Virus record (IMG/VR): IMGVR_UViG_3300037430_000005
Coordinates: 1-43,626 of that record
Direction: 5' to 3' (one strand)
Length of the DNA stretch: 43,626 bases
DNA from: a virus
This document shows, piece by piece, positions 3,275-19,811 of this stretch; position 1 is the stretch's first letter; each line of letters opens with the position of its first letter. The notes below the pieces were generated by a model that saw only the letters and a list, made by a program, of their open reading frames with translations, searched no databases and was not told the DNA's origin. The position numbers and the translations under genes are program-made.

Positions 3275-3361
3275 CTTGATCCAGTATGCGCCCTTAGTCG
3301 CTCATCCTCGCGCCTTCGGCTCGGGGGAGGCCCTAAACGTACGAAAATACAACGCCTTATA

Positions 3362-3423
3362 CGCGAAGGCGACCGACAGGTGACTCGTCACCGTCGGCTT
3401 ACCGCGTCCTCGATGCGGAGTCA
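3362..3423 (+). repeat. Structured intergenic repeat R1 (CGCGAAGG-N28-CTTACCGCG)
   Basis: Box1 at 3362..3369, box2 at 3398..3406. Internal hairpin CCGACAGGTGAC/GTCACCGTCGG. The tail abuts the RHH stop codon at 3421. Confidence 0.85.
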
Positions 3424-4022: not shown

Positions 4023-4467
4023 CGCCGTGCGGCCCCTGCCCGTCACAGTGACGACATTGGTCGAGTGGGTGATAACAGATCGCGCAGTAGCCGAAGGAAC
4101 CTGCTGGCCGCTTCTCCTCTGGGGGACACGCCGCGACATCTTCCGGCCCCGGACGGAGAGCGACCGCTAAAGCCGCTTCCAGTTCTTCCGCCCGCAAGTT
4201 GCGGTAGAACGCATCATCGGGCGTCCCGACGGGTTGGGACCATCCGAGCTTATAACGCGCGGAGTCGCGCTCAGCGGTCAGGGTGCGAATCTGAGCTTCC
4301 AATGACTCGACTTCTGAAGCTGGGGGACACGCCGCGACGAGGTCGGCCCACTCCACCCACGTCCCTTCCGCGTCAGGCTCCAGATGAATGAGGCCGGATG
4401 CGCCCGCTAATCGCATACGGTATCGTCGCAGCGTCTCCACCCACGCGGGGAGTGTCTTAATAGTCAA
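4015..4467 (-). CDS. Hypothetical protein with a C-terminal Cys/His cluster
   Basis: The start is uncertain: TTG 4467 with GGAAAGGA upstream, or ATG 4416. The C-terminus reads YCAICYHPLDQCRHCDG. The longer listed N-terminus would run through repeat R3. Confidence 0.5.
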   Translation of the reverse strand: MTIKTLPAWVETLRRYRMRLAGASGLIHLEPDAEGTWVEWADLVAACPPASEVESLEAQIRTLTAERDSARYKLGWSQPVGTPDDAFYRNLRAEELEAALAVALRPGPEDVAACPPEEKRPAGSFGYCAICYHPLDQCRHCDGQGPHGDA

Positions 4468-4485
4468 CGCTTTACAATCCTTTCC

Positions 4486-4545
4486 CGCGAAGGGGACAGG
4501 CCGAGCGTCCCCCTGATCACTTACCGCGTCCACCAGCACGCTTAG
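4486..4545 (+). repeat. Structured repeat R3 (CGCGAAGG-N26-CTTACCGCG)
   Basis: Box1 at 4486..4493, box2 at 4520..4528. Internal hairpin GGGGAC/GTCCCC. Overlaps the stop and last codons (GRGK*) of 4517..4741. Confidence 0.85.
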
Positions 4546-5300: not shown

Positions 5301-5320
5301 GAACGATCACGACGATCATG

Positions 5321-7249: not shown

Positions 7250-7366
7250 GTGCGCGCTCCTTTGAAGGTGGCCCGACAAAAATCGCGGGCGGCTGCGGAA
7301 TCTCGGCATTGATCGGTCGCCACAAATGCAAGGGAATTATATACTTGAGTGCGAAGCATGATTGAA

Positions 7367-7807: not shown

Positions 7808-7808
7808 G

Positions 7809-7940
7809 TCACTTCTCCTTCGCGATCTTCGTGGCCCGGCGCTTCCGCCGTCGGGCGGGTTTACTCTTTGCCTTCGGGCGGTAGGCCAGCACCACGTCCA
7901 CAATCGCGTCCAGTTGTTTTGGAACCTTCGTCTTCGTCAT
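7809..7940 (-). CDS. Small basic protein (43 aa), cargo of the IS element
   Basis: Hand translation MTKTKVPKQLDAIVDVVLAYRPKAKSKPARRRKRRATKIAKEK. ATG 7940 overlaps the upstream TGA as ATGA. Confidence 0.4.
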   Translation of the reverse strand: MTKTKVPKQLDAIVDVVLAYRPKAKSKPARRRKRRATKIAKEK

Positions 7941-8332
7941 GGCCGGTTCTCATCGCCGTCCATCGCGTCAGTTCCTGCGAACGGTGGGTAGGGCTCGACG
8001 CGCCCGCTCTCCACCTTAGCGATGGCGGCTTCAGCTTTGGCGTATGGACAGTTGTCCCAGTGCGTCTTAGCCGGATTTCGGAGCACGCCGGAATCACACA
8101 TCGGGCAACCCCATCGCTCAGCGAAGATTCCCCGCAGGGCCGCGAGCAGGTCCGGCGCGGCGGCGATCAATCGGGCGTTAGCAGCGTTCTCCGCACGCGA
8201 CAGACCCGATCCAATATCCGGCGTGCAAGGCGCGGTGATTGCGAAGTGGCTGACCTTCGCGATGGCCATCCCATCGCCTTCGTTGATTTCCCACGGTCCA
8301 GGTGTATGCGTCGCGGTCCAAGTTGTGTCCAT
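7937..8332 (-). CDS. Hypothetical protein (GPWE...ANARLIAAAPDLL motif), cargo of the IS element
   Basis: 131 aa. The SD site TAGGAG overlaps the transposase stop, so the gene is co-transcribed with tnp. Confidence 0.6.
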   Translation of the reverse strand: MDTTWTATHTPGPWEINEGDGMAIAKVSHFAITAPCTPDIGSGLSRAENAANARLIAAAPDLLAALRGIFAERWGCPMCDSGVLRNPAKTHWDNCPYAKAEAAIAKVESGRVEPYPPFAGTDAMDGDENRP

Positions 8333-8341
8333 CGCAATCTC

Positions 8342-9265: not shown

Positions 9266-9371
9266 GCCCTAATTGTAGCAAAAACGCCGTGCGCACTCAA
9301 GTATATAATTCCCCAATAGAGACACATCGCCAGCGCGGTACCGCAGTGGTGACAGGCTTGGACGTCGTGGC

Positions 9372-9677
9372 TCACGCGAAGTCCTTATCCCAGGCAATCG
9401 CCACATCGCCAGCGATCGGATTCGTCGTGCCGGGCTTGCATACGGAGTGATACAGCTTGGTGGCGGCCGGGTTGATCGGTTTGCCGTCGATCAAGCCGAC
9501 GTCATCCACGAGCATGATGCGCCCGTCGCGCAGATTCACCGTGTCGATGGTGTCCGCGCCGATCATGCGCTGGCACCAATTGAGCAAGATAGAACGGCCG
9601 ACATGGTGTTCTTCGTCCTGGCCGTTCGTGCGGAGAATTGTCACGACGGCGAGTTTCTTCATCGTTTCAGTCTTCAT
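9372..9677 (-). CDS. DUF3846-like protein
   Basis: ...RMIGADTIDTVNLRDGRIMLVDDVGLIDGKPINPAATKLY...IAGDVAI. The start is ATG 9677 or 9662. Confidence 0.5.
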   Translation of the reverse strand: MKTETMKKLAVVTILRTNGQDEEHHVGRSILLNWCQRMIGADTIDTVNLRDGRIMLVDDVGLIDGKPINPAATKLYHSVCKPGTTNPIAGDVAIAWDKDFA

Positions 9678-9909
9678 CTGCGTAGCCACAATCCCAGTCG
9701 TGGTAATCCGTGAACAGCGCGCACCCACAGTCGGGACAATGCGGATCGTCCACGCATTCAGGACACGTCTGATCACACGCGCGGCACCACGAGAGCTGAT
9801 GATCGCCGCAGAACTCGTGGACGGCCGCGTGGCCCGTGAAGTCACGGCACCACGGATCGCGGTAGCCGTCGTCGTCCTGCGGGTAGGGTTCTTCGTCTTC
9901 GGTGCTCAT
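9667..9909 (-). CDS. Acidic Cys-rich small protein
   Basis: 80 aa. WCRD..H..H.FC..H..WCRACDQTCPEC..HCPDCGC. Its leader and start codon lie in repeat R6. Confidence 0.6.
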   Translation of the reverse strand: MSTEDEEPYPQDDDGYRDPWCRDFTGHAAVHEFCGDHQLSWCRACDQTCPECVDDPHCPDCGCALFTDYHDWDCGYADED

Positions 9910-9970
9910 GCGGTCACCATCGTCAACGCGGTAAGTGGACGCTGGGAATTACCTGTCGGTTACCTTCGCG
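9907..9970 (-). repeat. Structured repeat R6 (CGCGAAGG-N27-CTTACCGCG)
   Basis: Box1 at 9963..9970 overlaps the last codons and TAA of 9960..10163. Box2 is at 9927..9935. The tail ACGATGGTGACCGCATGAGC supplies the start of 9667..9909. Confidence 0.85.
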
Positions 9971-10163
9971 CATAAAATTCTTGATCTTCGTCGTGCCCGC
10001 GTCGGGCGATCACCCGCAGTCGATCCAATCGATCACTGGCTTCCTGATCCCACGGCCGCGATCGAAAGCGGACATCTTCCTCCCGTCGTTGCAGGAAGAC
10101 GCGGACGTAGATGCCCCCCATCGCCACCACAAAGACGCCGACGACGAGCAGGACATACCTCAT
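9960..10163 (-). CDS. Small membrane protein
   Basis: 67 aa with the N-terminal hydrophobic helix MRYVLLVVGVFVVAMGGIYV. Confidence 0.5.
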   Translation of the reverse strand: MRYVLLVVGVFVVAMGGIYVRVFLQRREEDVRFRSRPWDQEASDRLDRLRVIARRGHDEDQEFYARR

Positions 10164-10510
10164 AGCTTGAACGCCAGCGCCTCGCGCGGCCCCTTGACGA
10201 CGATCTCGTCATCGGCATTCCCCGTGATCGTGATCCGTCCCGCATGCTCGAGCCGATGATGCGCGACGCAGAGGTAACAGAGATTCGAGGGCGCCCATAG
10301 GAGCCGCTTGGATTTCGAGCGATAGATGATGTGGTGCAAGTGAATCCCATCCTCCCGGCAGCCGGGGACACTGCAGCGCCGGCCGTCACGGAGTCGCACG
10401 GCTTTGCGTGCCGCCGCTTCCAGGGCCTTGCCGGTGAGCCGTTTCGTCCGCTTGAGCTCCACACCGAGCTTGCCCTTGGGAAACGCGAGCTGGGAGGTAT
10501 CCATGCCCAT
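10160..10510 (-). CDS. HNH endonuclease
   Basis: CSVPGC..GIHLHHIIYRS...NLCYLCVAHHRLEH. ATG 10510 shares one base with the upstream TGA (TGATG). Confidence 0.7.
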   Translation of the reverse strand: MGMDTSQLAFPKGKLGVELKRTKRLTGKALEAAARKAVRLRDGRRCSVPGCREDGIHLHHIIYRSKSKRLLWAPSNLCYLCVAHHRLEHAGRITITGNADDEIVVKGPREALAFKL

Positions 10511-12354
10511 CACGCCGCCCCCGCGAACGACGTCGGATCGCCAAATTGCAACACCGTCACCAGCGTCTGTCGGCCGGGTACGTTCGCCAGCGGCGTCAGG
10601 TGCAGATGCCATTTCTTCTCGCCCGCGGCCACGGCGGTGCCGGGCCACGCGACGGCCTGATCCACCACGGTCGCCACGAGGTCATCGCGCTGCCAGGTGA
10701 GACGGGCCATGCCTGACGGGATCGGCCACTCGGCGACGTTGCCGGTGATCGTCGGGACCACGGGACAATGCCAACGCCATTGCCGTAAGGGATTGCTTTT
10801 GATGCGCGTCTGCATCGCGGCACTGTAGCGGGTGAAATTCGCCAAGAGCTGCGGATCGTCCAGATCGGACGTGTCGGTCACGGTGATCCTGTCCACGGCG
10901 TCCGCGTGCCGCCACTCGATCGTGCGGGTGTACTCCTTGAGGAACGGCGGGATTTTGTAATAGTTGGCCGCGGGAGACAGTACATGGCCGCGCGTCGTGC
11001 CGGCGACGAAGAACACGCCAGGCGCGGTGATGAGGCGGTCCGCGATCCGCGATTCGACGGATGAGCCGAAGCCGGCCAGGAGCATCACGTTGGCGCCTTC
11101 GCCCGTCGTCGTGACCCCGCCGTACGTGATCGGATGCGTCAGCGCCCAGCTGCCTTGGCGGTACAGTTGCACGTCCCCGAAATACGTCACGCCATGATCG
11201 ACGCCGCCATTCGGGTGCGTCGGCGGGAAGTGCGTCATCAGGTGCGAGGCGTCCGCCTGCCACGAGCTGCGGGCACTGACGATCCCTTGCCCGGTCGCGT
11301 TGAAGATCAGCGGGAGCGCGTCGCGGGTGCGCGTCGGGCCATACGGATCAAACAGGAGGAAGGATCGCGCGAGCGGCGGCGTGGCGGCCGTGCCGTACTG
11401 CGCCGTCATGTCCACGACGAACTGGCGCGCATCGGACGAGTCGAAGCACATCGCGGACGCCACCCAATAGGGCGGGCGCACCTTATGCGGTTCCTGCTCG
11501 TCCCCCCATTGAAAGCTCTGCTTCAGATCCGGCGTGATTAGGTGCGTGTAGCGTTGGGCGGCGTGCGCCTGCCACGCCACGACCTCGGGGAAGTGCTCGA
11601 TCCCCACGGCGGCGGCCCCGAGCAGCAGCAGTCGCACGGTCCCCAGGTTGTATTCGGAGCCTTCGATCCACTCCCCGCCTGCCGCCATCTCGACGTAATC
11701 GCGCACGCAGTTGCGGAGCGTGAGCCGGTCCCGGCCCGTGCTGTCATACCCGCCCACGCACGGACGGATGAACAACGCTTGCGCGGGGCCATCATCCGGG
11801 AACGCCTTCGCATAGCAGGCGAGCCCCATGTAGACGCCTGTCACCTGATCAGAATCGACTGTTCGCAGCGGCATCGCCGCGGGTAGCGAGGGGTTCGTCA
11901 ACGCGGAGGTCCACATCGCATCGAGTTGCGCCAGGAATTGCGCGCGTTGCGCCTCGCTCAGCCCCGGCCAGAGCCAGTCGAGGATCACAACCCGTTCCAT
12001 CGCGTATTCCCGCACGTTGTCCTGCTGAAAGGTCGTGGCCGTGAGGAAGCCTTGCAGTTTCGCCCACGCCTTCGCGACGAATGCCACATCCCCTGTCGCC
12101 TGATACGCGATCGTCGCCCACAGGCCCGTGTCCGCGTAGACGGTGCCACTCAGCGCAGCCGTGCGGATCAGGGTCCACCACGGATGGGTCTCGGCGACCA
12201 TGCGGTTGAAGGTCGCTTGCCGGGTCGGCGTCCAGAGCAAGCGGGGGGCGCGGCCCGTGGGACTCGTCACCGGCGGCGGGATCACCACAGGCGGGAGTTG
12301 ATGCGCTTCAATCAACAGGCGCAAGGATTCGATGAACTCAGGATCAGTGCTCAT
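10510..12354 (-). CDS. Polysaccharide-lyase-like protein (heparinase II/III or alginate-lyase type architecture)
   Basis: 614 aa. The N-terminal half is helical and rich in W and A. The central motif is HFPPTHPNGGVDHGVTYFGDVQLYRQGSWALTHPITYG. The C-terminal half looks beta-rich. Assignment is by motif resemblance only. Confidence 0.4.
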   Translation of the reverse strand: MSTDPEFIESLRLLIEAHQLPPVVIPPPVTSPTGRAPRLLWTPTRQATFNRMVAETHPWWTLIRTAALSGTVYADTGLWATIAYQATGDVAFVAKAWAKLQGFLTATTFQQDNVREYAMERVVILDWLWPGLSEAQRAQFLAQLDAMWTSALTNPSLPAAMPLRTVDSDQVTGVYMGLACYAKAFPDDGPAQALFIRPCVGGYDSTGRDRLTLRNCVRDYVEMAAGGEWIEGSEYNLGTVRLLLLGAAAVGIEHFPEVVAWQAHAAQRYTHLITPDLKQSFQWGDEQEPHKVRPPYWVASAMCFDSSDARQFVVDMTAQYGTAATPPLARSFLLFDPYGPTRTRDALPLIFNATGQGIVSARSSWQADASHLMTHFPPTHPNGGVDHGVTYFGDVQLYRQGSWALTHPITYGGVTTTGEGANVMLLAGFGSSVESRIADRLITAPGVFFVAGTTRGHVLSPAANYYKIPPFLKEYTRTIEWRHADAVDRITVTDTSDLDDPQLLANFTRYSAAMQTRIKSNPLRQWRWHCPVVPTITGNVAEWPIPSGMARLTWQRDDLVATVVDQAVAWPGTAVAAGEKKWHLHLTPLANVPGRQTLVTVLQFGDPTSFAGAA

Positions 12355-12677
12355 GCGTTATGTAAGCGGCCGCGGGTCTCCCCCGTCGCGGCCAACCGGG
12401 TCTCACGCTCTTCCGGCCCCGCCAGACTGACGGGCGCCTGAGGCGTTGGAGGACGAGGACTTCTGCCGCGCCCGTGTTGCTGGCGCTCTTGCGCGAGCGC
12501 CGCCCGCCGCTCCGCTTCCCCCTGACACAAGTCACAGAGCGGGGCGAGCTCATAGGGGTCATCCAGGCACCGGAGCAGGAGCCGATCACAGCCCACGCGG
12601 CTACAGGTCCGGCGCACGAGGCCGGGATCGTAGTCATCGAGCTCCCGGTCATCCGCCGGCTGATCGAAGCGACTCAC
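12351..12677 (-). CDS. Hypothetical protein with a Cys cluster
   Basis: 108 aa, with ATGA overlaps at both ends. Confidence 0.5.
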   Translation of the reverse strand: MSRFDQPADDRELDDYDPGLVRRTCSRVGCDRLLLRCLDDPYELAPLCDLCQGEAERRAALAQERQQHGRGRSPRPPTPQAPVSLAGPEERETRLAATGETRGRLHNA

Positions 12678-13486
12678 GCCGCGGCTCCACTGCGCCGGGC
12701 GCGGTAGTCCTGATCGTTCTGATAGGTCCAGGCCCAGAGTTGCTTCGTCGCCAGGAACACGGGGAACAGCTCTCGTGCGGGCGGGACGGTCACCACTTCA
12801 AAGGCGGGGTCGGTGTCCACCTTCGGCAAGCGGAGAATCAAGGCCGAGGCCGGCAACGCAAACCCCATCTCCTCGAGCGCCACACTGTAGGCGGCCGATT
12901 GCAGGAAGCTCTCCGGGTAGACGGCTTTCCCGCTCTTGAAGTCCAGCAAGGTCAACACGCCGTTGACGCGGGCGAGCAGATCCATCGTCCCGGCGTACTG
13001 GTGGACCTTGGAATAGACCGTGTGTTCAATCACGACCGGCTTGAGGTTGACCGACTTCGCGAAGTCCTCGAAGGCCATCACGGCCCAGAGCGCCTTGTCG
13101 CTGATGACCGGCTTCGGCCCGGCGTCGGCCCCGATCGCGGTGCGCATCATCCACTCGATCATCTTGTGGATTTGCGTCCCGATTTCGCCGGCCTTGGCCA
13201 ATTCCTTCTGATGCGCTTTGACGAGCCCGAGTCGCGCGGTCAACGTCGCCAGATAACTCTCGCGGGGCATCTGCGGCGGGACCAGTTGGGCGCACCATTC
13301 CTGATAGAGATCCGCCGCGGCTTCGGTGCAGGCCGCGCGCTCGGTTGATGCAGACCAGGCGATAAGGGCCGGCTTCCCGATGCAGCCGAGAATATGCGTC
13401 ACGCTGGGATAGGAGGCGCCGTCAATCTCATAGAAGCGGCCGTTGACCGCGGAGTCTTTGCGTACAACTTTCGTTTTGGTAGGCAT
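12674..13486 (-). CDS. PD-(D/E)XK (Cas4/RecB-like) exonuclease
   Basis: Start ATG 13486. YPSVTHILG ... GTQIHKMIE ... GTMDLLARVNGVLTLLDFKSGK ... QSAAY. Confidence 0.65.
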   Translation of the reverse strand: MPTKTKVVRKDSAVNGRFYEIDGASYPSVTHILGCIGKPALIAWSASTERAACTEAAADLYQEWCAQLVPPQMPRESYLATLTARLGLVKAHQKELAKAGEIGTQIHKMIEWMMRTAIGADAGPKPVISDKALWAVMAFEDFAKSVNLKPVVIEHTVYSKVHQYAGTMDLLARVNGVLTLLDFKSGKAVYPESFLQSAAYSVALEEMGFALPASALILRLPKVDTDPAFEVVTVPPARELFPVFLATKQLWAWTYQNDQDYRARRSGAAA

Positions 13487-13497
13487 GGGGCTTTCAA

Positions 13498-13947
13498 CTA
13501 AAACGGGATGTCCGCATCGTCGAAGGGATAGATGTCCGTCTCGAGCTCCGGGTCCGGTGTCAGCGCGTGTGCCGGCGCGGGCTTCGGTTTCGGCGGCGGC
13601 GCGGCGGGGGTCATGTGGATCCGGCTCTTCCCGTTGGGCGACTTGATCCGCACCACGTCGTAACTCTCGCCGCCGTAATCCGCTTCCGCGGTGTAGAGCT
13701 TCACGGCCGTGCCTGGCCACTCTTCGGTCATGCCCGAGCCGGAAATTTCAATAATCTTGTTGGCGTTCGTCTTGTTCAGGACGATGCCCTTTTCCTTGCC
13801 CGCAAAGTAGACGACCGGCTTCATCTCGCGCGTCCGGCCGACGGGTTCAAACTCCACCCGCTCAATCGTCACCACCGGCTCGTGCCCTTTCAGGTCGTGG
13901 GCTTTCAGGTATTTCGTCGGAAACACGTCATTAATGTTGGGGGACAT
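13498..13947 (-). CDS. Putative ssDNA-binding protein with an SSB-type C-terminal tip
   Basis: Start ATG 13947, 149 aa. A Pro-rich linker is followed by ...IYPFDDADIPF at the C-terminus. Confidence 0.4.
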   Translation of the reverse strand: MSPNINDVFPTKYLKAHDLKGHEPVVTIERVEFEPVGRTREMKPVVYFAGKEKGIVLNKTNANKIIEISGSGMTEEWPGTAVKLYTAEADYGGESYDVVRIKSPNGKSRIHMTPAAPPPKPKPAPAHALTPDPELETDIYPFDDADIPF

Positions 13948-13949
13948 AA

Positions 13950-14240
13950 TTACTTTCGGGGATCCACGCCCCACGGCGTGCTCGGGGTGATCGATCCGAT
14001 GACCTTCGCGGCTTCGGCCCGCGCCAATCCCGCGGCCAACTCAAACAGCGGCGCGTTCGGTTTCACGGCCTCGATCACGGCTTCGGCCATCGTGATGTAG
14101 GTGTGCCGTTCGGGCAGGGACAACGCCTCCCAATGGATCACGTCCAGCTGATAACACGTCGCCCGCGCGAGATAGATCACATGGGCCAACTGCGCCAACG
14201 CGGCTGCTTTTGGTAATCCACACAAAGGTGACGGACTCAC
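13950..14240 (-). CDS. Hypothetical protein
   Basis: GTG 14240 overlaps the upstream TGA as GTGA. 96 aa. Confidence 0.45.
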   Translation of the reverse strand: MSPSPLCGLPKAAALAQLAHVIYLARATCYQLDVIHWEALSLPERHTYITMAEAVIEAVKPNAPLFELAAGLARAEAAKVIGSITPSTPWGVDPRK

Positions 14241-14392
14241 GGCTGCCCCGCCGCCAAGAACACCACGACACAGGTCGGGCACATCGAATGGGAGGTCGGC
14301 AGGGTCGGATCGCCGACGTGTTCGATCCGGCGGCACCACGCACACTGGATCGTGAAGTCTTCCGGCACCGGCGCGAGGTCTGGGTTGTTCAT
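14237..14392 (-). CDS. Small zinc-ribbon protein (51 aa)
   Basis: Hand translation MNNPDLAPVPEDFTIQCAWCRRIEHVGDPTLPTSHSMCPTCVVVFLAAGQP. High third-position GC. ATGA overlap with the upstream gene. Confidence 0.55.
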   Translation of the reverse strand: MNNPDLAPVPEDFTIQCAWCRRIEHVGDPTLPTSHSMCPTCVVVFLAAGQP

Positions 14393-14592
14393 GGTCTGGC
14401 TCGGAATCGTGGCCGCGGTAACTCTTTCGGTGGACGCTCTGCGTATCGCCGTCGCGGGAAGATTTCTTGGTACGCTTCGTCGTCGTAGTCCTCATCCGCT
14501 GCTGTGACGTCTCCGCGGATCGCTTTCCCGATCCCCACGGCGACACACAGCACCAAGGCGACGCCGAGCAGGATCCAGCCCCAGGGATTCAT
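14389..14592 (-). CDS. Small membrane protein whose C-terminal ~25 aa are encoded by repeat R7
   Basis: MNPWGWILLGVALVLCVAVGIG is a transmembrane helix. The tail FPRRRYAERPPKELPRPRFRARP is read from the repeat. Confidence 0.5.
   Translation of the reverse strand: MNPWGWILLGVALVLCVAVGIGKAIRGDVTAADEDYDDEAYQEIFPRRRYAERPPKELPRPRFRARP
14390..14456 (-). repeat. Structured repeat R7 (CGCGACGG-N26-GTTACCGCG), a divergent copy
   Basis: Box1 at 14449..14456, box2 at 14414..14421. The tail ends at ATG 14392. Confidence 0.75.
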
Positions 14593-14855
14593 ACGGGGCT
14601 GTTCTTGAGATACCGCGTGACCAGCTCCCCGCTGTACCGCTTCTTCCGCCCCACGGGTCGGCGAAATTCAAACCGCTTCAGCTTCCCGGCTTTCTGAAAC
14701 GCGTAGAACGTCGCGGGCCGCAGGTTGAGGGCGCGCATCAATTCCCCGGCGCCCATCGCGTTCGGTAAGGGTTCGCCGACGTGATACGGCCTGGCAGGCT
14801 CGTGGATCACCGCAGACGGCTTCTGGTCTTCCAACAGTCCAACTGGCTCGGTCAT
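14589..14855 (-). CDS. HTH (excisionase/MerR-type HTH_17) protein, first gene of the early leftward operon
   Basis: ATG 14855. The listed 14891 start is a TTG that coincides with a TTGACA -35 box. GELMRALNLRPATFYAFQKAGKLKRFEF...YSGELVTRYL. Confidence 0.55.
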   Translation of the reverse strand: MTEPVGLLEDQKPSAVIHEPARPYHVGEPLPNAMGAGELMRALNLRPATFYAFQKAGKLKRFEFRRPVGRKKRYSGELVTRYLKNSPV

Positions 14856-14862
14856 GTCGGCT

Positions 14863-14891
14863 AGTGTATACGTCCGATAGTCTCCTGTCAA
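14863..14891 (-). promoter_or_regulatory. Candidate early promoter: -35 TTGACA, 17-nt spacer, -10 TACACT (or TATACA with 15 nt). It would give a near-leaderless transcript.
   Basis: The minus strand reads TTGACAGGAGACTATCGGACGTATACACTAGCCGACATG. Confidence 0.4.
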
Positions 14892-14916
14892 GTGTCTGAG
14901 GGTCTGTTGGCCATGC

Positions 14917-14938
14917 GTACGGATCCATGGATCGGTAC
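14917..14938. promoter_or_regulatory. 22-bp near-perfect palindrome, candidate operator
   Basis: GTACGGATCCATGGATCGGTAC. The 12-bp core GATCCATGGATC is perfect and the outer GTAC arms are also symmetric. It lies between the divergent repressor and the early operon. Confidence 0.4.
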
Positions 14939-15165
14939 GATGATCCGACAGTCACGGCTGAGGTAGGCGGTTTGTCAGTGCCGTTGTGACGAATCGATAG
15001 CGAAAGTCTGTAGGCGACGGTAGGACAGGACCGGAGTCGGTCAGAACTGGCTAGATTTATGGCTAGACGCTATGCGACACTGTGCCCAATTATTCCAGTA
15101 TCGACTTCCCGATATTCCACATGGGTATATCTGTCGTCATAAATCGTAAATCCGATGAGTCTGTG

Positions 15166-15615
15166 ATGAGCGACACGACTGTAGCTTTTACTGTAGGGGA
15201 CGTGATCCGCAAACTCCGCAAAGATCGCCATTGGTCTATCCGCAAGCTGCAACACGAAAGCGGCATCGGTCGGATGACGATCTCCGCGATCGAACGCAAC
15301 GAATCGAACTACCAGAAAGACACGCTCGATGCGCTCGCCCTCGCGTTCAAGATGAAAAGCGGCGCCGAGCTGGAAGCCCTGGCGAGTCTGTCGCCGTCGC
15401 GCACGCGTCGTGCGACCGATAGCGATCTCGCGCCGGAATGGATCGCGTTCACGCGGCGCGTGATGCGGCTCAATCGCCAGGCGCAAGGCGCGTTGCATGT
15501 GATCGTGTTGGCGTTTGAAGACGCGGGCGCCGTGAGCCCGCACGACGCCCCGGAGGCCGACGACCCCGCCGCGCCGGCGCCCGCCCATCCCCATCCCCCG
15601 GCACATCAGGGCTAA
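15166..15615 (+). CDS. CI-like XRE-family repressor
   Basis: ATG 15166. VGDVIRKLRKDRHWSIRKLQHESGIGRMTISAIERNESNYQKDTLDALALAF. Divergent from the early operon and adjacent to the integrase. Confidence 0.7.
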   Translation: MSDTTVAFTVGDVIRKLRKDRHWSIRKLQHESGIGRMTISAIERNESNYQKDTLDALALAFKMKSGAELEALASLSPSRTRRATDSDLAPEWIAFTRRVMRLNRQAQGALHVIVLAFEDAGAVSPHDAPEADDPAAPAPAHPHPPAHQG

Positions 15616-15724
15616 CCGCCCACACTCCAGGCTGGTACACTTGACGCTATCTTTGCGCCGTGGAATAGGCTAGACTCCGGTCAAATGTCAGCCATCCGAC
15701 AGAGCGAAAGGGCTGAGGTGTGTT

Positions 15725-15928
15725 ATGGCCCCGTCGTCGTTGGCGTCGATCGTTGCGCCCGTCGTCCACCTGATTCATCCCCACCAGACCGCGGTGCTCC
15801 AGCTCCTGATGCGGCATGCGATTGCGTTGCTTGCCCTCGAGGGGGACGCCTTCGTGCAGACGGCCGATGATCTGCTGGTGTCCCGCCTGCGCGATCTCGC
15901 GGCCGTCGCGGACAAGCTCCCCCACTAA
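15725..15928 (+). CDS. Hypothetical protein (67 aa)
   Basis: High third-position GC in this frame. Convergent with int, overlapping it by 4 nt. The overlapping minus ORF looks worse. Confidence 0.4.
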   Translation: MAPSSLASIVAPVVHLIHPHQTAVLQLLMRHAIALLALEGDAFVQTADDLLVSRLRDLAAVADKLPH

Positions 15929-16926
15929 CGGGCGAAGCGGCCGGTGAGCAGATCGCTGACGCGTCGTTGCCGGCTCGCCTGTAAGGGCCCGTAGTACGCG
16001 CGGGTCGTCTCGATCTGGGTATGGCCCAGGAGCCCTTGCACGTCGCCCAGATCGGCGCCGGCCTCGAGCGCGGCAAAGGCAATCGCATGCCGCGCGTTAT
16101 ACGGCCGAATGCCTTTCGGCCAGCCGCACGACCGTAAGAGCCGCGCTTGCTTCGTCGTATCAAACCACCCCCAGGCGTGGGCCACGATGAACAACCGCCA
16201 CGCGGCAAGTTGATCGCGATTGAGATAGACGGGATGCGCGGGTTCGTTCTTGGCGCTGCGCACGATCCAGATCTTCTTTCGGAGCTGCACGTCTTCCGGC
16301 GTGGCGGCCATCAACTGCCCGGCTCGCTGGCCTGTCGTGACGAGGACGCGATACCGCGCATACGCCTGGGCGTTGCCGGTGCGCTTCAACCGCTCCCCCA
16401 CCCGGCGAATCGTCTCGAGCGGCACGTCCACGGGCTGCGCCTTCGGCGTTTTGGGTTTCTTCGCGTCGGCGATGGGATGGCGGGCATGCTTGCCTTGGAG
16501 CGTTTGATAGAGCTCGCGCAGCACCCGGCAGCGATGCAGGATCGTTTTGTCGCTGACGCCATCGATCTGCCACGCTGCAATCGCCAGGTTCACATGCTCC
16601 GTCTTGATCCGGCTGAGCGCCCACGACCCCAAGCGCGGGAGCCACGCGCGCAGATGGGACCGATCCGCAGGGCCACTCACCCGGCCAGCGATCTGTTTGA
16701 CGTACGTGGTCACGGCCTCCGTCAATGTCCCGCGCAGCATTGGCACCGCGGCGTCGGCCGCCCGATCCAACAGCTCAGCCGTGGTCCGCGCTCGCCACGC
16801 CTGCATCAACAGCACGTCCATATCGGGCGGGAAGCGTTTCGTCCGGACCTGGCCCTTCGCCTTCACCCGGACATCAAAGCCATACCGATCCCGATGAATC
16901 CCGGTCGCCACCAACGTCCGGTCCAT
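15925..16926 (-). CDS. int: Tyrosine integrase
   Basis: ATG 16926 with GAGAGGA upstream. C-terminal catalytic region RPYNARHAIAFAALEAGADLGDVQGLLGHTQIETTRAYYG. Confidence 0.85.
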   Translation of the reverse strand: MDRTLVATGIHRDRYGFDVRVKAKGQVRTKRFPPDMDVLLMQAWRARTTAELLDRAADAAVPMLRGTLTEAVTTYVKQIAGRVSGPADRSHLRAWLPRLGSWALSRIKTEHVNLAIAAWQIDGVSDKTILHRCRVLRELYQTLQGKHARHPIADAKKPKTPKAQPVDVPLETIRRVGERLKRTGNAQAYARYRVLVTTGQRAGQLMAATPEDVQLRKKIWIVRSAKNEPAHPVYLNRDQLAAWRLFIVAHAWGWFDTTKQARLLRSCGWPKGIRPYNARHAIAFAALEAGADLGDVQGLLGHTQIETTRAYYGPLQASRQRRVSDLLTGRFAR

Positions 16927-17094
16927 GTGTCCTCTCTTTTTTGGGTCGTGGCCGAGCCCAACGACGGGCCTCCACCCCACCCCCTCCATTCCGCTGTCCG
17001 AAAACGGGTGGAGTTTACTAGAGATTTCAAGAGGTGGCAAATGAACGCACTTCGGGCGGGAATCGGCGGAATCGGTGAATTTGCTGAGGAAAAG

Positions 17095-17144
17095 TGGTTG
17101 CGGGGGCGGGATTTGAACCCGCGACCTTTGGGTTATGAGCCCAA
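17095..17144 (-). other. attP core: 3' ~50 nt of an initiator-type tRNA-Met(CAU) gene, not a complete tRNA
   Basis: The minus strand reads TTGGG-CTCATAA-CCCAA AGGTC GCGGG-TTCAAAT-CCCGC CCCCGCA ACCA. No D-arm or 5' acceptor strand is present upstream. It lies 170 bp from int. Confidence 0.75.
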
Positions 17145-17302
17145 CGCCCGATCCCTGATCAGGTCAGCTTTGCGCCTGTTCCACGTGGAACGGCTGGACT
17201 CCACTCTCGTGCCTCCACTCCGCGGATCGTCGCTCCTGGGGCACGCCAGCCGCCTTCCTGCCCCGATGGCGTGACAGACCGTGCAGCGGCCGCCGATTCC
17301 CC

Positions 17303-17331
17303 TTGCGGCACATATGCTAATCTGCTAATCT
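17303..17331 (+). promoter_or_regulatory. Candidate promoter of the plus-strand island (-35 TTGCGG, 17 nt, -10 TAATCT), overlapping the tandem GCTAATCT GCTAATCT
   Basis: The 8-mer tandem repeat is at 17316..17331. ATG 17338 follows 6 nt later, suggesting a leaderless transcript. Confidence 0.3.
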
Positions 17332-17337
17332 GTGTTC

Positions 17338-17541
17338 ATGAAGCCGGTTGACCCGCTCGCCACCCTCCGCGCCTTCGTGGCGACCCATCCGACGCAACAG
17401 AGCGCCGCCGCGGCCCTGGAGATGAGCCCGGCGTATCTCAGCGACCTCTTGAACGAGCGGCGGGATTTCAGCGCCGCTGTCCTCGCGCGTCTGGGCCTCA
17501 CGCAGATTGTCGTGAAAGCCAGCAAACCCATCGGCCGGTAA
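17338..17541 (+). CDS. Small HTH (Cro/YdaS-like) DNA-binding protein
   Basis: MKPVDPLATLRAFVATHPTQQSAAAALEMSPAYLSDLLNERRDFS. Confidence 0.55.
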   Translation: MKPVDPLATLRAFVATHPTQQSAAAALEMSPAYLSDLLNERRDFSAAVLARLGLTQIVVKASKPIGR

Positions 17542-17556
17542 GAAAGTCTGTCCGCC

Positions 17557-18072
17557 ATGCCCCGCCTCCTGATCGCCCTCGTCGCCAGTCTCCTGATCGC
17601 CTCCCCTGTCGTCGCCGCCCCGGCCTGGCCCCACTGCGCCGTGGGGTTGCCGACGATTCTCTCCAGCCTCTATGCCCCGGCCGGCGTGTATGACGGCATT
17701 GGCGGACCCCCCGTCACCGTGCAGCAATCCACGGTCTTTCTCGCCGGGAGTGCCTTCAACTGGGTCACGGGCCAGATGCCGCACGACATCACGGTGGAGT
17801 TCGTCTCGTGGACGGATGCCCCCGGCGGCCCGGATTGGGTCACCGCCCCGGGCACCGTTGCCCGGATGCAGTCCTATACCCTGTTGAAGCGGCCGGATGT
17901 CAGCGCCCACGCGGCGGCCACGATGAAATGGAAGCACATCTCGGCCTTTACCGGCTTCGCGCTCTACTTCATCGACCCGCCGCCGTTCGATACGCGCTTT
18001 CTTCGGATCACCTACCGGGATCCGTACTGTCCCACGACGACGCAGTACGTGCCCGTCACCGTTGTCCCCTAA
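17557..18072 (+). CDS. Secreted protein of unknown function
   Basis: Signal-peptide-like MPRLLIALVASLLIASPVVAAPA. Very high third-position GC. The long antisense ORF 17317..18540 is a shadow. Confidence 0.65.
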   Translation: MPRLLIALVASLLIASPVVAAPAWPHCAVGLPTILSSLYAPAGVYDGIGGPPVTVQQSTVFLAGSAFNWVTGQMPHDITVEFVSWTDAPGGPDWVTAPGTVARMQSYTLLKRPDVSAHAAATMKWKHISAFTGFALYFIDPPPFDTRFLRITYRDPYCPTTTQYVPVTVVP

Positions 18073-18102
18073 TAACCCATCGGTCCGATTGAAAGTGACA
18101 CC

Positions 18103-18297
18103 ATGAAGCTGTTGATGATCGCCGCCGTCCTCGCGCTCAGTCTCGCCTCCCTCGCGGCCGTCGGCACCGAAACCTGCTTTCTCGAGAGTGAGCAGGACGC
18201 CGGGATGAACAAGATTTGTTTCTATAGCTGCGTGAGTGGGGATGCCGCGATCACGATCAAGGCCGTGCAACTCTGTCCGCTCAGTATTAAACGCTAG
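18103..18297 (+). CDS. Small secreted 4-Cys protein
   Basis: MKLLMIAAVLALSLASLAAVG signal-like N-terminus. The mature part has 4 Cys. Confidence 0.55.
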   Translation: MKLLMIAAVLALSLASLAAVGTETCFLESEQDAGMNKICFYSCVSGDAAITIKAVQLCPLSIKR

Positions 18298-18319
18298 AAG
18301 GAAGAGACGAACGATCAGG

Positions 18320-18387
18320 CGCGAAGGCCGCCGACAGCTAACTCGTCGGCGGCCCCTTACCGCGGCCACGGAGGTGACCTCATGAGC
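18320..18387 (+). repeat. Structured repeat R8 (CGCGAAGG-N28-CTTACCGCG)
   Basis: Box1 at 18320..18327, box2 at 18356..18364. Internal hairpin CCGCCGAC/GTCGGCGG. The tail ACGGAGGTGACCTCATGAGC supplies the SD site and start of 18382..18795. Confidence 0.85.
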
Positions 18388-18795
18388 CACGTAACACTGA
18401 CGCTCACGCGGCGACAACTCGCTATCCTGGGGGCAGTGCTGGGTCGGTGCGAGGGCTGGGATGATCCGCGTGAACTGCAGCGGTTCGTCTCCATCGCGGC
18501 TGACAGCGTGCGAGAGGGCTGGACTGAGACCGAGATGCACGCGCTCGGGGAACTGCTAGCCGAGGCCGATAACCGGATCCGTGTGCCGTGCGAACCTGAT
18601 CTCGCGCGGCTCCAGCGTGGGCTCGCGCGGCTCAACCCGATGCAACGCTCATCGCCGGAAACCCGCTCCTGCGTCTTCTGCGGTGCGGACAAAGGCCACA
18701 GCTACGTGACCGGCGACCGCACGCCGCACACGCCCGATTGTGAATGGCGGCTCGCGTGTGAAGCGCGCGGCATTCCGTGGAATCATGTCTTATGA
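18382..18795 (+). CDS. Hypothetical protein (137 aa), bracketed by R8 and R9
   Basis: GGAGGTGA SD site 7 nt upstream. C-terminal Cys cluster CVFCG...H..C..C. Confidence 0.6.
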   Translation: MSHVTLTLTRRQLAILGAVLGRCEGWDDPRELQRFVSIAADSVREGWTETEMHALGELLAEADNRIRVPCEPDLARLQRGLARLNPMQRSSPETRSCVFCGADKGHSYVTGDRTPHTPDCEWRLACEARGIPWNHVL

Positions 18796-18847
18796 GATGG
18801 TCGCCGCGGTAAGTGTTCGGGTGACTGCTCACCATGTCCCATTCGCG
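18785..18847 (-). repeat. Structured repeat R9 (CGCGAATG-N26-CTTACCGCG), inverted relative to R8
   Basis: Box1 at 18840..18847, box2 at 18805..18813. The tail ACCATCTCATAAGACAT covers the stop of 18382..18795. Confidence 0.8.
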
Positions 18848-18866
18848 TACAAAGACGTTCTTCTTC

Positions 18867-19049
18867 TTAATCCGTCTTCCCGTGACTGATATGGATCGAC
18901 TTCAAGAACCGGGCATCCATTTCTGTCACATGGTACGGCGGGGCGGTACACCACGTCGTCACTTGCTTGCACAAGACGCAGACCACCGGCACGTCCCCGG
19001 TAATCACCAACTCCTGCCCACAACTCATACACCAGAGCAGGACGGCCAT
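18867..19049 (-). CDS. Small zinc-ribbon protein
   Basis: 60 aa. CMSCG...CVLCK. Confidence 0.45.
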   Translation of the reverse strand: MAVLLWCMSCGQELVITGDVPVVCVLCKQVTTWCTAPPYHVTEMDARFLKSIHISHGKTD

Positions 19050-19050
19050 G

Positions 19051-19332
19051 TCATGAGCCCGGATGCCGGAGGGCCGCCTGGAGCGCTCGCGCCGTTAACC
19101 ACGTCCCATGCAGCTCGTAGTACTCACGCACCAACAGAATTTCGAGCTGCAAGGTGTCCAGATCCGCCGTCGCGTCCGCCCAATTCGACGGCCGATCATC
19201 GGGCACGCGGATCCAGTCCTCCCGATCACAATTGACGCACGCCGACGGAATGACGACCCCGATCGCGCCCCACTGCGCCTGACAGAAGCGACATGCGAGC
19301 AGGGTGAAGGGGGCCGCCGTCAACGCGGTCAC
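19051..19332 (-). CDS. Hypothetical protein
   Basis: 93 aa. CRFC...CVNC. ATGA overlap with the upstream gene. Confidence 0.5.
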   Translation of the reverse strand: MTALTAAPFTLLACRFCQAQWGAIGVVIPSACVNCDREDWIRVPDDRPSNWADATADLDTLQLEILLVREYYELHGTWLTARALQAALRHPGS

Positions 19333-19811
19333 GGATGGCTCGCCAGCCAGTTCGCGTCAACCGCCGCACTCCGCACGAGCAGTTCACGATAGGACGCCAG
19401 CACTTCCGCCGATAGTGGTTCGTCAAACGCGCGGGCCACCAACCGCCGCAGAATGGACTTGGCGAGTTCGACGTACGGCTCGTACCGCGCATGGGCTTCG
19501 CCAGTGAGATTCTTGAGCCCCGCGTCTAGGCCCGCTTGGGCTTTGACCTGCCAGCCCTCGCCGCGGGTCTGCACCAAGTCCAGCAATGAACTGTGCAGGG
19601 TCACGAGCCGCCGCGTGATGGGTGTGCTGAACGGCACTTGGTTGAACGAGTGCGTGATGATCGCGACGTCGCGGCCATCATCGATCGCCTTGACGAACTG
19701 ACCGTTGTCGTACGCCATCGACGCGTCAGGTGTGAGGTTGGGCGGGCGATTTCGTGAGCATCCCACTGTCAGCATGACTGAAATAAGGCACAAAACACTA
19801 AGCAGATACAT
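19329..19811 (-). CDS. Lipoprotein (candidate exclusion or surface-modifying function)
   Basis: ATG 19811. MYLLSVLCLISVMLTVGC has a lipobox LTVG|C. Confidence 0.55.
   Translation of the reverse strand: MYLLSVLCLISVMLTVGCSRNRPPNLTPDASMAYDNGQFVKAIDDGRDVAIITHSFNQVPFSTPITRRLVTLHSSLLDLVQTRGEGWQVKAQAGLDAGLKNLTGEAHARYEPYVELAKSILRRLVARAFDEPLSAEVLASYRELLVRSAAVDANWLASHP

What the first reader, a model, noticed from the sequence alone, without database searches (positions are those of the whole stretch)
18320..18847. 528-bp cassette: a 137-aa plus-strand gene bracketed by inverted repeats R8 and R9, sharing its leader and first codons with an unrelated gene
R8 (+) and R9 (-) are inverted with box1 outermost. 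They enclose only 18382..18795.

The R8 tail ACGGAGGTGACCTCATGAGC provides the SD site and Met-Ser start. The R6 tail ACGATGGTGACCGCATGAGC (17/20 identical) does the same for the unrelated Cys-rich gene 9667..9909 on the other strand, about 9 kb away. Two different genes therefore share a portable 5' leader that includes the start codon.

R9 covers the stop codon and sits at the convergence point between the plus-strand island and the minus-strand genes.
Basis: seen in the sequence. Interest (0 to 1): 0.65.

Follow-up and report, generated by a model that had tools for sequence, protein, structure and literature searches.

The report
Phage gene-boundary repeats bracketing one gene
The 137-aa gene really is flanked by two inverted repeats, but these are 2 of 9 copies of a gene-boundary repeat scattered through the early region of an uncultured soil temperate phage, so this is a shared regulatory "adaptor" and not a self-contained 528-bp mobile cassette.

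Summary
**Observation: confirmed.** R8 (+) and R9 (-) lie at the stated coordinates with box1 outermost and enclose only ORF 18382-18795. The R8 and R6 tails match 17/20. R9 overlaps the stop codon.

**What it is.** R8 and R9 are two of exactly nine copies (3.3-18.9 kb, none in the structural genes) of one element:
- a purine-rich tract;
- box1, CGCGAAGG;
- a 26-30 nt spacer;
- box2, CTTACCGCG;
- a tail.

Seven more copies occur on six unrelated metagenomic contigs.
- Forward copies end in an SD plus start codon. The leader ...GACCNC-ATGAGC heads four unrelated genes on three contigs.
- Reverse copies abut a stop codon. The tail TGAGATGG occurs four times, in two phages.
- Inverted pairs also bracket an RHH gene (R2/R1) and a two-gene unit in contig L023.

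**Limits on the cassette idea.**
- Homologues of the 137-aa protein and of the Cys-rich protein elsewhere carry no such flanks.
- R8 and R9 are only 40% identical.
- No target duplication or recombinase link was found.

The "portable leader" stands. The "528-bp cassette" as a travelling unit does not.

**Mechanism (inferred).** No RNA fold, sigma-70 promoter, terminator or Rfam match was found, and reverse copies are as well conserved as forward ones. A DNA-level protein-binding site fused to translation signals is therefore the most likely function. The closest analogues are Cluster K mycobacteriophage SAS/ESAS and T4-type PeSLs.

**Rating.** Moderately interesting; a new variant of a known kind.

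The parts
18294..18377 (+). R8, a forward copy of the boundary repeat. It has a purine-rich tract right after the TAG of the 64-aa gene, box1 CGCGAAGG (18320-27), a 28-nt spacer holding a 10-bp hairpin, box2 CTTACCGCG (18356-64), and a tail with the SD GGAGGTGA. The ATG at 18382 follows 17 nt after box2.
   Evidence: 46.3 bits
18382..18795 (+). 137-aa gene. The N-terminal ~75 aa are unique and predicted helical. The C-terminal ~62 aa form a conserved Cys/His domain (SCxFC...H...C, ending ...HVL) found in a very small family of phage proteins. Function unknown.
18792..18873 (-). R9, a copy on the minus strand. Its tail CCATCTCA is the complement of TGAGATGG and overlaps the TGA of the 137-aa gene. 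Box2 is at 18805-13 and a box1 variant, CGCGAATG, at 18840-47. Its purine tract starts right after the TAA of the 60-aa minus-strand gene.
   Evidence: 52.7 bits
18103..18297 (+). 64-aa gene upstream of R8, with a signal-peptide-like N-terminus (matches phrog_4641). Its TAG stop is in frame with the 137-aa ORF.
18867..19049 (-). 60-aa gene convergent with the 137-aa gene. R9 lies directly downstream of it, in the same orientation.
9912..9996 (-). R6, a forward copy with the same leader as R8 (ACGATGGTGACCGC-ATGAGC). It heads the Cys-rich 80-aa gene 9667-9909(-). The upstream ORF 9960-10163(-) reads through box1 and stops in the spacer.
   Evidence: 65.4 bits
9667..9909 (-). Cys-rich 80-aa gene that shares the R8 leader and its first two codons only. 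It has 8 homologues (64-78% identity). In every context fetched the gene has no element upstream; where no DNA was returned (P0010), the gene calls show it starting at the end of the upstream gene.
3337..3421 (+). R1, which lies 9 nt after the stop of the RHH gene and is inverted relative to R2. R2 and R1 bracket the RHH gene in the same way that R8 and R9 bracket the 137-aa gene.
   Evidence: 58.9 bits
3569..3650 (-). R2. The start codon of the RHH gene (3600) lies in its spacer, and the 67-aa ORF 3597-3800(-) reads through box1.
   Evidence: 59.1 bits
3421..3600 (-). 59-aa ribbon-helix-helix protein, bracketed by R2 and R1. It is one candidate for the protein that binds the repeats.
   Evidence: NikA-like 5.6e-4, below the Pfam cut-off
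4460..4540 (+). R3, a copy in reverse orientation inside the leftward operon.
   Evidence: 53.4 bits
5300..5375 (+). R4, a reverse copy. Its TGAGATGG tail holds the stop of gene 5380-5823(-).
   Evidence: 53.2 bits
6804..6884 (+). R5. Its TGAGATGG tail holds the stop of gene 6881-7249(-). A possible plus-strand ORF, 6669-6893, reads into it.
   Evidence: (44.3 bits)
14399..14481 (-). R7, a forward copy lying inside the 3' end of the 67-aa membrane-protein ORF 14389-14592(-). An ATGA overlap leads into the 51-aa gene 14237-14392(-). The syntenic copy is in L089.
   Evidence: (45.1 bits)

Best explanation
**What it is (shown).** The window is a complete, circularly assembled 43.5-kb temperate phage from a soil metagenome. 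R8 and R9 belong to a lineage-specific family of homologous gene-boundary modules, each about 65-85 bp. Every copy fills the whole gap between two genes:
- the stop of the co-oriented upstream gene, or its last codons;
- a purine-rich tract;
- box1, CGCGAAGG;
- a 26-30 nt spacer;
- box2, CTTACCGCG;
- a tail.

The tail comes in two kinds. It either carries an SD and the start codon of a gene leaving the element, or it butts against the stop codon of a gene arriving on the other strand (TGAGATGG). The 137-aa gene is an ordinary accessory gene of unknown function near attP. It happens to lie between one copy of each kind.

**How it most likely works (inferred).**
- The two invariant boxes are partial inverted repeats (CGCG-AAGG and CCTT-AC-CGCG). 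They are probably the binding site of a sequence-specific DNA-binding protein, from the phage or the host, that co-regulates early and accessory genes at the DNA level.
- The tail supplies a standard translation-initiation region.
- Because the same module recurs at many junctions and in otherwise unrelated phages, it probably also serves as a short stretch of homology at which genes are swapped. That would explain why unrelated genes carry the same leader.
For: **Family, statistics and location**
- Nine copies lie at 3.3-18.9 kb and none in the structural block from 19 to 43 kb.
- Seven further copies score 46-56 bits on L023 (two copies), L036, L004, L089, L100 and L101. Chance hits to the seeding pattern score 20 bits or less.
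- DNA similarity of those contigs to the window is confined to the element. Only one short ORF is shared at protein level.

**The same architecture occurs elsewhere**
- L023 has a forward copy with the ATGAGC leader, then two genes, then a reverse copy with TGAGATGG at the stop.
- R2 and R1 bracket the RHH gene.
- The R7 and L089 copies are syntenic.

**The leader is portable**
- Four unrelated proteins carry it, and the similarity ends at codon 2.
- Homologues of both window genes carry no element in any context for which DNA was fetched. In the contexts they start at or within the end of the upstream gene.

**A DNA-level function is favoured**
- Forward copies score 45-65 bits and reverse copies 44-59 bits, so both are equally conserved.
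- There is no consistent RNA fold in either orientation: z-scores run from about -2.7 to +1.3, and only R1 and R8 are significant.
- RNAalifold finds only the invariant CGCG/CGCG pairs, with no covariation.
- No Rfam family matches.
- No sigma-70-type promoter lies in any copy, and a terminator-like site overlaps only R1.

**Candidate binding proteins are encoded nearby**
- RHH protein, 3421-3600.
- HTH proteins at 3801-4139, 15202-15615 and 17332-17541.

**The analogy is documented.** Cluster K SAS/ESAS elements are confined to non-structural genes and lie just upstream of mostly ATG starts of unrelated genes. They are pairs of imperfect inverted repeats without RNA-pairing support, so their authors judged them likelier to be sites for DNA-binding proteins (PMC3203893).
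Against: - No binding, transcription or translation data exist, and no RNA runs hold this phage. The function is therefore pure inference.
- The boxes are a poor palindrome, and the 26-30 bp spacing is unusual for a simple dimeric operator.
- The spacer varies by up to 4 nt, which would rotate the boxes relative to each other.
- Some copies lie inside coding sequence (R2, R7, L089, and box1 of R6). In the R7/L089 pair Arg codons are kept through CGA/AGA and CGG/AGG changes. There, part of the conservation is protein-coding constraint and not a DNA site.
- The A-every-third-base pattern upstream of box1 also points to a coding history.
- The recombination role rests only on mosaic boundaries. 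No presence/absence polymorphism could be found.
Confidence: 0.5

Rival explanations
1. The elements are a family of non-canonical promoters, recognised by a modified host RNA polymerase or an alternative sigma factor. Box2 would lie near -10. Forward copies would drive the gene that follows from a short leader. Reverse copies would drive antisense transcripts into the 3' ends of convergent genes: the 137-aa gene, the RHH gene, 5380-5823 and 6881-7249.
For: - Seven of eight forward copies place a start codon 17-21 nt after box2, with an SD in between.
- The copies are restricted to early and accessory regions.
- PeSLs are repeated intergenic modules that run from stop codon to start codon and contain promoters (PMC2839356).
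Against: - No sigma-70-like hexamers lie in any copy, although a good TTGACA-17-TACACT promoter exists at 14891-14863.
- No phage RNA polymerase or sigma factor was detected.
- The box1-box2 spacing varies from 26 to 30 nt.
- In R2 the RHH start codon lies upstream of box2.
- Five of nine copies would fire against the genes they face.
Confidence: 0.2
2. The elements are mobile or recombinogenic boundary sites. On this reading the R8-gene-R9 unit, the R2-RHH-R1 unit and the L023 unit are gene cassettes moved or inverted by a recombinase acting on the boxes. This would resemble integron attC sites, MITEs or the ultra-small mycobacteriophage elements (MPME).
For: - Inverted pairs bracket one or two genes in three places, in two phages.
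- The element is shared by phages that share almost nothing else.
- The junction motif CTCATGAG is palindromic. It can supply ATG to an outgoing gene or TGA to an incoming one, and ATGAG occurs at both ends of the 137-aa unit.
- The homology between the window ORF 6669-6893 and L023 ends about where R5 begins.
Against: - Homologues of the bracketed genes never carry the flanks.
- R8 and R9 are only 40% identical.
- The copies of a pair are inverted and not direct, unlike integron cassettes.
- There is no integron integrase and no dedicated recombinase. The only tyrosine integrase sits beside a tRNA-type attP.
- The IS1595-family element has unrelated ends.
- No excised, inverted or empty-site form was seen.
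Confidence: 0.15
3. The elements act at RNA level. They might be a translational enhancer or coupling signal in forward copies and a terminator, processing or stability signal in reverse copies.
For: - The positions are tight against start and stop codons.
- R2, R7 and L089 have ATGA stop-start overlaps.
- R1 and R8 contain strong hairpins, z about -2.5.
- Read in reverse, R1 forms a terminator-like hairpin followed by a T-rich run.
- Box2 is complementary to the 16S 530-loop sequence GCCGCGGUAA. This last point is from memory and was not tested.
Against: - Seven of nine copies fold no better than shuffled sequence, and there is no covariation.
- An RNA signal should work in one orientation only, yet both orientations are equally conserved.
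- No Rfam match.
- No U-tract follows the reverse copies.
- An 8-mer match to rRNA is expected by chance about once in eight tries (my own estimate).
Confidence: 0.1

Closest known systems
Start-associated sequences and extended SAS (SAS/ESAS) of Cluster K mycobacteriophages (Pope et al. 2011, PMC3203893; function still untested in 2025, PMC12699233)
   Same: - Repeats are restricted to the non-structural half of a temperate phage genome.
- They sit a few bases upstream of start codons of genes from unrelated families, with a strong preference for ATG.
- An upstream gene's stop codon sometimes lies inside the repeat.
- ESAS is a pair of imperfect inverted repeats with a variable spacer and no RNA-pairing support, so protein binding at the DNA is suspected.
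- Occasional copies lie in the opposite orientation without a gene start.
   Different: - The sequences are unrelated (SAS is GGGATAGGAGCCC).
- ESAS arms are 17 bp with a 4-13 bp spacer. Here the boxes are 8-9 bp with a 26-30 bp spacer.
- SAS copies are almost all in one orientation. Here about half are reversed, and the reversed copies have their own conserved tail (TGAGATGG) at stop codons.
- Here the start codon and second codon are themselves part of the repeat.
- The host is unknown (soil metagenome).
PeSL (promoter-early stem-loop) regulatory cassettes of T4-type phages (Arbiol et al. 2010, PMC2839356; PMC4122927)
   Same: - A repeated intergenic module runs from the upstream gene's stop codon to the SD and start codon of the downstream gene.
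- It is concentrated in plastic regions next to ORFans.
- It is proposed to mediate modular shuffling by recombination between copies.
   Different: - PeSLs contain a consensus sigma-70 promoter and a stable stem-loop terminator, both shown experimentally. Neither is detectable here.
- PeSLs flank genes as direct repeats and give mini-circles. Here the bracketing pairs are inverted.
Stoperators of Cluster A mycobacteriophages (L5), cited in PMC3203893; details from my own knowledge
   Same: Many copies of an asymmetric site lie in short intergenic gaps of a temperate phage and would be bound by a phage regulator acting at the DNA level.
   Different: Stoperators are 13 bp, number about 24-30 per genome across both arms, and keep one orientation relative to transcription. 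Binding by a repressor is not shown here.
Morons (promoter-gene-terminator units inserted between phage genes); from my own knowledge
   Same: A small accessory gene of unknown function lies near the attachment site, flanked by its own non-coding signals, in a block transcribed opposite to its neighbours.
   Different: No promoter or terminator could be demonstrated in the flanks. The flanks are members of a family that also occurs inside operons.

Membership tests
Cluster K SAS/ESAS | 13-bp SAS consensus GGGATAGGAGCCC, 3-7 bp upstream of the start codon | tested here: not met
   The consensus here is different: box2 CTTACCGCG lies 17-21 nt before the start codon. Definition taken from PMC3203893.
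Cluster K SAS/ESAS | Restricted to the non-structural gene region; heads genes of unrelated families; ATG preferred | tested here: met
   All nine copies lie at 3.3-18.9 kb. Seven of eight forward copies use ATG. The downstream proteins are unrelated.
Cluster K SAS/ESAS | ESAS: two imperfect 17-bp inverted repeats separated by 4-13 bp; nearly all copies in one orientation | tested here: not met
   The boxes are 8-9 bp and 26-30 bp apart. In the window, five copies lie on the + strand and four on the - strand, against mostly leftward genes.
PeSL | Sigma-70 consensus promoter within the motif | tested here: not met
   The consensus scan finds 4 promoter-like sites in 3000-19500, and none lies in an element.
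PeSL | Stable stem-loop acting as terminator or attenuator | tested here: not met
   Only R1 and R8 fold better than shuffles. The other seven do not, in either orientation, and there is no covariation.
Integron gene cassette / attC | attC with R''/R' core sites (RYYYAAC / GTTRRRY), one per cassette in direct orientation, with an integron integrase | tested here: not met
   The boxes are CGCGAAGG and CTTACCGCG, and the pairs are inverted. The only integrase is a phage tyrosine integrase next to a tRNA-type attP. The attC definition is from my own knowledge.
MITE / ultra-small mobile element (MPME-like) | Near-identical copies of the whole unit with terminal inverted repeats and target-site duplication; the unit is found with its flanks at new sites | tested here: not met
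   The bracketed cargo differs at each pair. R8 and R9 are 40% identical. Gene homologues elsewhere lack the flanks. The ends of the resident IS1595-family element are unrelated.
Intrinsic terminator | GC-rich hairpin followed directly by a U-tract | tested here: not met
   Of the terminator-like sites found, only one overlaps an element (R1, read in reverse). The folds of reverse copies are not significant.
Known RNA families (Rfam 15) | Covariance-model match | tested here: not met
   Only a tRNA fragment at 17106-17169 reaches the gathering score. No element matched, even at E up to 10.
Operator / stoperator-type protein-binding site | Sequence-specific binding by a phage or host regulator | not testable with these tools
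   Candidate binding proteins are encoded, but no binding data exist.

The most novel reading that the evidence does not exclude
The element may be a bidirectional "gene adaptor": a portable intergenic module with a defined palindromic junction (CTCATGAG). That junction gives an ATG to a gene leaving the module or a TGA to a gene arriving on the other strand. ORFs could then be plugged in at either orientation by recombination at the module. A dedicated protein binding the two boxes would place every captured gene under one common control. This would be a new mechanism of gene capture and co-regulation in temperate phages.
Probability: 0.1. Interest if true: 0.75.

Novelty: new variant of a known kind. 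Interest (0 to 1): 0.45.

Why it matters
- Dispersed gene-boundary repeats are known in a few well-studied phage groups (Cluster K SAS/ESAS, T4-type PeSLs, L5 stoperators). The function of SAS/ESAS is still unproven after 14 years.
- An unrelated family with the same logic, in an uncultured high-GC soil phage, suggests that such shared junction modules are a general way for phages to regulate and exchange accessory genes.
- This family has an unusual feature: two tail types tied to orientation. One carries the SD plus ATGAGC, and the other carries TGAGATGG at a stop codon. These give clean handles for reporter and binding experiments.
- For annotation, the practical lesson is that identical leaders, and even identical first codons, on different genes need not mean gene duplication.

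Tried and rejected
- **Structured RNA or hairpin.** Single-sequence folds in both orientations and RNAalifold give no consistent structure and no covariation. Rejected.
- **Rfam families.** No match.
- **Sigma-70 promoter or intrinsic terminator inside the element.** Not found. My hand checks for sigma-32, sigma-54, ECF and extended -10 matches were unconvincing; this is inference only.
- **Small peptide encoded by the element.** Spacer length varies by non-multiples of three (26-30 nt), and stop codons are scattered in every frame. Rejected as a general feature, although upstream ORFs do read into several copies.
- **MITE of the resident IS1595-family element.** The IS ends, GGGAATTATATAC..., are unrelated to the boxes.
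- **Integrase arm sites.** The copies lie 1.2 kb or more from the attP core at 17100-17146.
- **Presence/absence of the unit in relatives.**
  - The 614-aa early protein and the two flanking proteins have no relatives in IMG/VR.
  - No phage in INPHARED resembles the region.
  - The only other run holding the phage has about 2x coverage and no reads over the unit.
- **Exact-pattern scans.**
  - The IMG/VR scan found 4 real contigs among 38 hits.
  - The TGAGATGG scan added none.
  - The GTDB genome scan found none among 26 hits.
  - The metagenome scan found 3 real contigs among 30 hits.
- **Function of the 137-aa protein.**
  - No Pfam or PHROG hit.
  - The family is tiny.
  - The AlphaFold2 model is too poor for a fold search (pLDDT 65, pTM 0.36), so no search was run.
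- **A shared cognate protein.** The only ORF shared by the window and L023 (6669-6893) has no database homologues.
Full report
**1. Context**

The window carries a 127-bp identical overlap at its two ends. It is therefore a complete, circularly assembled genome of about 43.5 kb, with 63.5% G+C. It came from a soil metagenome.

It is a temperate tailed phage:
- a tyrosine integrase at 15925-17040(-);
- beside it a tRNA fragment, whose 47-bp core at 17100-17146 has host-level depth, so it is the attP core;
- a CI-like HTH protein at 15202-15615(+);
- a replication initiator at 5820-6572(-) and a large terminase at 1085-2410(-);
- an IS1595-family insertion at 7332-9313.

Nearly all genes run leftward. 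The exception is a short plus-strand island at 17332-18795, next to attP. It ends with the 137-aa gene of the finding. No phage in INPHARED resembles the region.

**2.

They are inverted with box1 outermost and enclose only ORF 18382-18795.
- The R8 and R6 tails match 17/20 and end in ATGAGC.
- R9 overlaps the TGA stop, and the next gene is on the other strand.
- The repeats are far beyond chance. CTTACCGCG occurs 8 times against 0.35 expected, and the two composite patterns 3 times each against 0.
- Two corrections are needed. Conservation extends outward through a purine-rich tract, to 18294 and 18873, the stop codons of the co-oriented neighbour genes. R8 and R9 are also the least alike pair of the family, 40% identical.

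**3. The family**

A profile built from 16 copies finds exactly nine copies in the window, at 44-65 bits. All lie between 3.3 and 18.9 kb, and none is in the structural genes.

Each copy has this anatomy:
- a purine-rich tract with A at every third base;
- box1, CGCGAAGG;
- a 26-30 nt spacer of two sequence types;
- box2, CTTACCGCG;
- a tail.

Exact-pattern scans of public collections gave seven further genuine copies, at 46-56 bits:
- four contigs from IMG/VR: L023 (two copies), L036 and L004;
- three short soil contigs: L089, L100 and L101.

All other pattern hits scored 20 bits or less, and none of the 26 hits in GTDB genomes was genuine. These contigs share essentially nothing else with the window. 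The element is therefore better conserved than the genes around it.

**4. Two tail types, tied to what abuts the element**

Forward copies are followed by a gene on the same strand, in two leader subtypes:
- ACGRNGNNTGACCNC-(A/G)TGAGC, 17-18 nt after box2. It occurs in R8, R6, L023 copy A and L101.
- ...GAGCCARACC-ATGAA, 21 nt after box2. It occurs in R7 and L089.

The proteins behind the first subtype are unrelated, and the similarity stops at codon 2.

Reverse copies butt against the stop codon of a gene on the other strand. R4, R5, R9 and L023 copy B all read TGAGATGG-N4-CGCGGTAAG.

Both tail types contain CTCAT, and in R8 the full motif CTCATGAG is a palindrome. The same junction can therefore hold an ATG for an outgoing gene or a TGA for an incoming one.

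**5. The bracket arrangement recurs, but the cassette does not travel**

Inverted pairs with box1 outermost occur in three places:
- R8/R9 around the 137-aa gene;
- R2/R1 around a 59-aa ribbon-helix-helix gene;
- L023 copies A and B around two genes that sit inside a co-directional array.

The bracketed genes are not tied to the repeats:
- The 137-aa protein has a conserved C-terminal Cys/His domain of about 62 aa and a variable N-terminus. The family is tiny: 8 hits among 1.84 billion representatives.
- Its homologues in L040, L042 and L044 sit in tight operons or next to a tRNA gene and have no repeat on either side. Their ...VL-stop ending is conserved without the repeat.
- Homologues of the Cys-rich gene overlap their upstream gene or otherwise lack the element (nhmmer scans).

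I found no target-site duplication and no dedicated recombinase. The IS ends show no similarity to the boxes, and no inverted or empty form was seen. The "528-bp cassette" as a unit is not.

**6. What the element is not**

- It is not a structured RNA. Only R1 and R8 fold better than shuffles, the reverse strand is no better, RNAalifold keeps only the invariant CGCG pairs with no covariation, and there is no Rfam match.
- It is not a sigma-70 promoter or an intrinsic terminator. The phage does have a good TTGACA-17-TACACT promoter at 14891-14863, which probably drives the early leftward operon.
- It is not a peptide gene. The spacer varies by one to four bases.
- Several upstream ORFs do read into the element in one frame (nCG CGA AGG, giving ..RR..). 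These are R2, R6, R7, L089 and L101.
- In the syntenic R7/L089 pair the upstream membrane-protein ORFs are homologous (E 3e-15). They keep Arg codons through CGA/AGA and CGG/AGG changes, so in some copies part of the conservation is coding constraint.

**7. Most likely mechanism (inference)**

Reverse copies are as well conserved as forward ones, which argues against a signal read on one RNA strand. The invariant parts are two short boxes that are partial inverted repeats. I therefore favour a DNA-level binding site for a regulator, fused to a standard translation-initiation region.

Candidate regulators are encoded close by. One of them, the RHH protein, is itself bracketed by two copies.

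The module's recurrence at many junctions and in unrelated phages makes it a plausible recombination linker. That would explain identical leaders on unrelated genes.

I put about 0.5 on this package. The classification as a dispersed gene-boundary repeat family is much firmer than the binding-site mechanism. The rivals are:
- a non-canonical promoter family (0.2);
- recombination or mobile cassette sites (0.15);
- an RNA-level signal (0.1).

**8. Comparison with known systems**

- The closest analogue is the SAS/ESAS system of Cluster K mycobacteriophages. It shares the genomic restriction, the position at ATG starts of unrelated genes, stop codons inside the repeat, and imperfect inverted repeats without RNA-pairing support. 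Its function is unknown and remained so in 2025.
- PeSLs of T4-type phages share the stop-to-start intergenic module and the shuffling role, but they have a real sigma-70 promoter and terminator.
- The present family fails the sequence and architecture criteria of both, so it is an analogue and not a member.
- It also differs in having an orientation-linked second tail at stop codons.

**9. Verdict**

This is a real, statistically solid feature. It is a new variant of a known kind of phage gene-boundary repeat. The "cassette" reading should be replaced by [quoted passage not shown]. Interest is moderate at 0.45. It would rise if binding or recombination at the boxes were shown.

Noticed in passing
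window 7332-9313: An IS1595-family insertion sequence of about 2 kb, with perfect 22-bp terminal inverted repeats (GGGAATTATATACTTGAGTGCG). The transposase lies at 8342-9265(-), and the ORF list shows further ORFs on both strands inside the element. It is inserted in the phage early region. Contig L101 matches only the left flank, 7284-7330.
   Followed up: partly
window 17100-17146 (Rfam tRNA hit 17106-17169): A 47-bp tRNA-derived core with depth of 33-126x, against about 9x for the phage. Loose ends in both runs lead into other contexts. This is the attP core next to the integrase, and the phage integrates into a tRNA gene.
   Followed up: partly
window 563-639; L100 863-939: A 77-nt non-coding block between convergent genes is 80.5% identical to a block in the otherwise unrelated contig L100. 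There it lies 18 nt from a copy of the boundary repeat. It may be a second conserved non-coding element of unknown function.
   Followed up: partly
window 6669-6800 (+); L023 1632-1763 (-): A patchwork of perfectly conserved blocks (GGATGGCCCAGATCGT, GTCCATGTCTGG, CTGCGTCTG) is shared with L023. In both phages it lies divergent from the replication gene. It can be read as a 74-aa ORF (MAQIV...) that runs into R5, but it has no database homologue. It is either a small gene or an origin/regulatory region.
   Followed up: partly
window 18295-18384 and 18867-18873: The TAG stop of the 64-aa gene is in frame with the 137-aa ORF, with no other stop between them. The 60-aa minus-strand gene is likewise in the same frame as R9, behind a single TAA. 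This may be chance (roughly 1 in 8 each, my own estimate) or a trace of readthrough or fusion history.
   Followed up: no
window 14389-14592 (-) and L089 219-446 (-): Homologous small membrane-protein ORFs (40.6% identity, E 3e-15) have a C-terminal tail, ..RRR.AERPP..LPRPR.RA.P, encoded by the repeat itself. Arg codons are kept through CGA/AGA and CGG/AGG changes, so this copy is under protein-coding constraint.
   Followed up: partly
box2 in all 16 copies (e.g. window 18805-18814): The reverse complement of box2 plus one or two bases, GCCGCGGTAA, equals the universal 16S rRNA 530-loop sequence, which is the 3' end of primer 515F (from memory). All copies share the 8-mer. A chance match is likely, so this is recorded only as a lead.
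   Followed up: no
window 3421-4139 (-): Three small putative nucleic-acid-binding proteins lie in a row just upstream of the GIY-YIG nuclease and the terminase genes. They are an HTH protein (3801-4139), a Cys-rich 67-aa protein (3597-3800) and the RHH protein (3421-3600). This may be a late-gene control region.
   Followed up: partly
window 1-127 and 43500-43626: An identical 127-bp terminal overlap shows that the contig is a circular assembly, either a complete genome or one with terminal redundancy.
   Followed up: no
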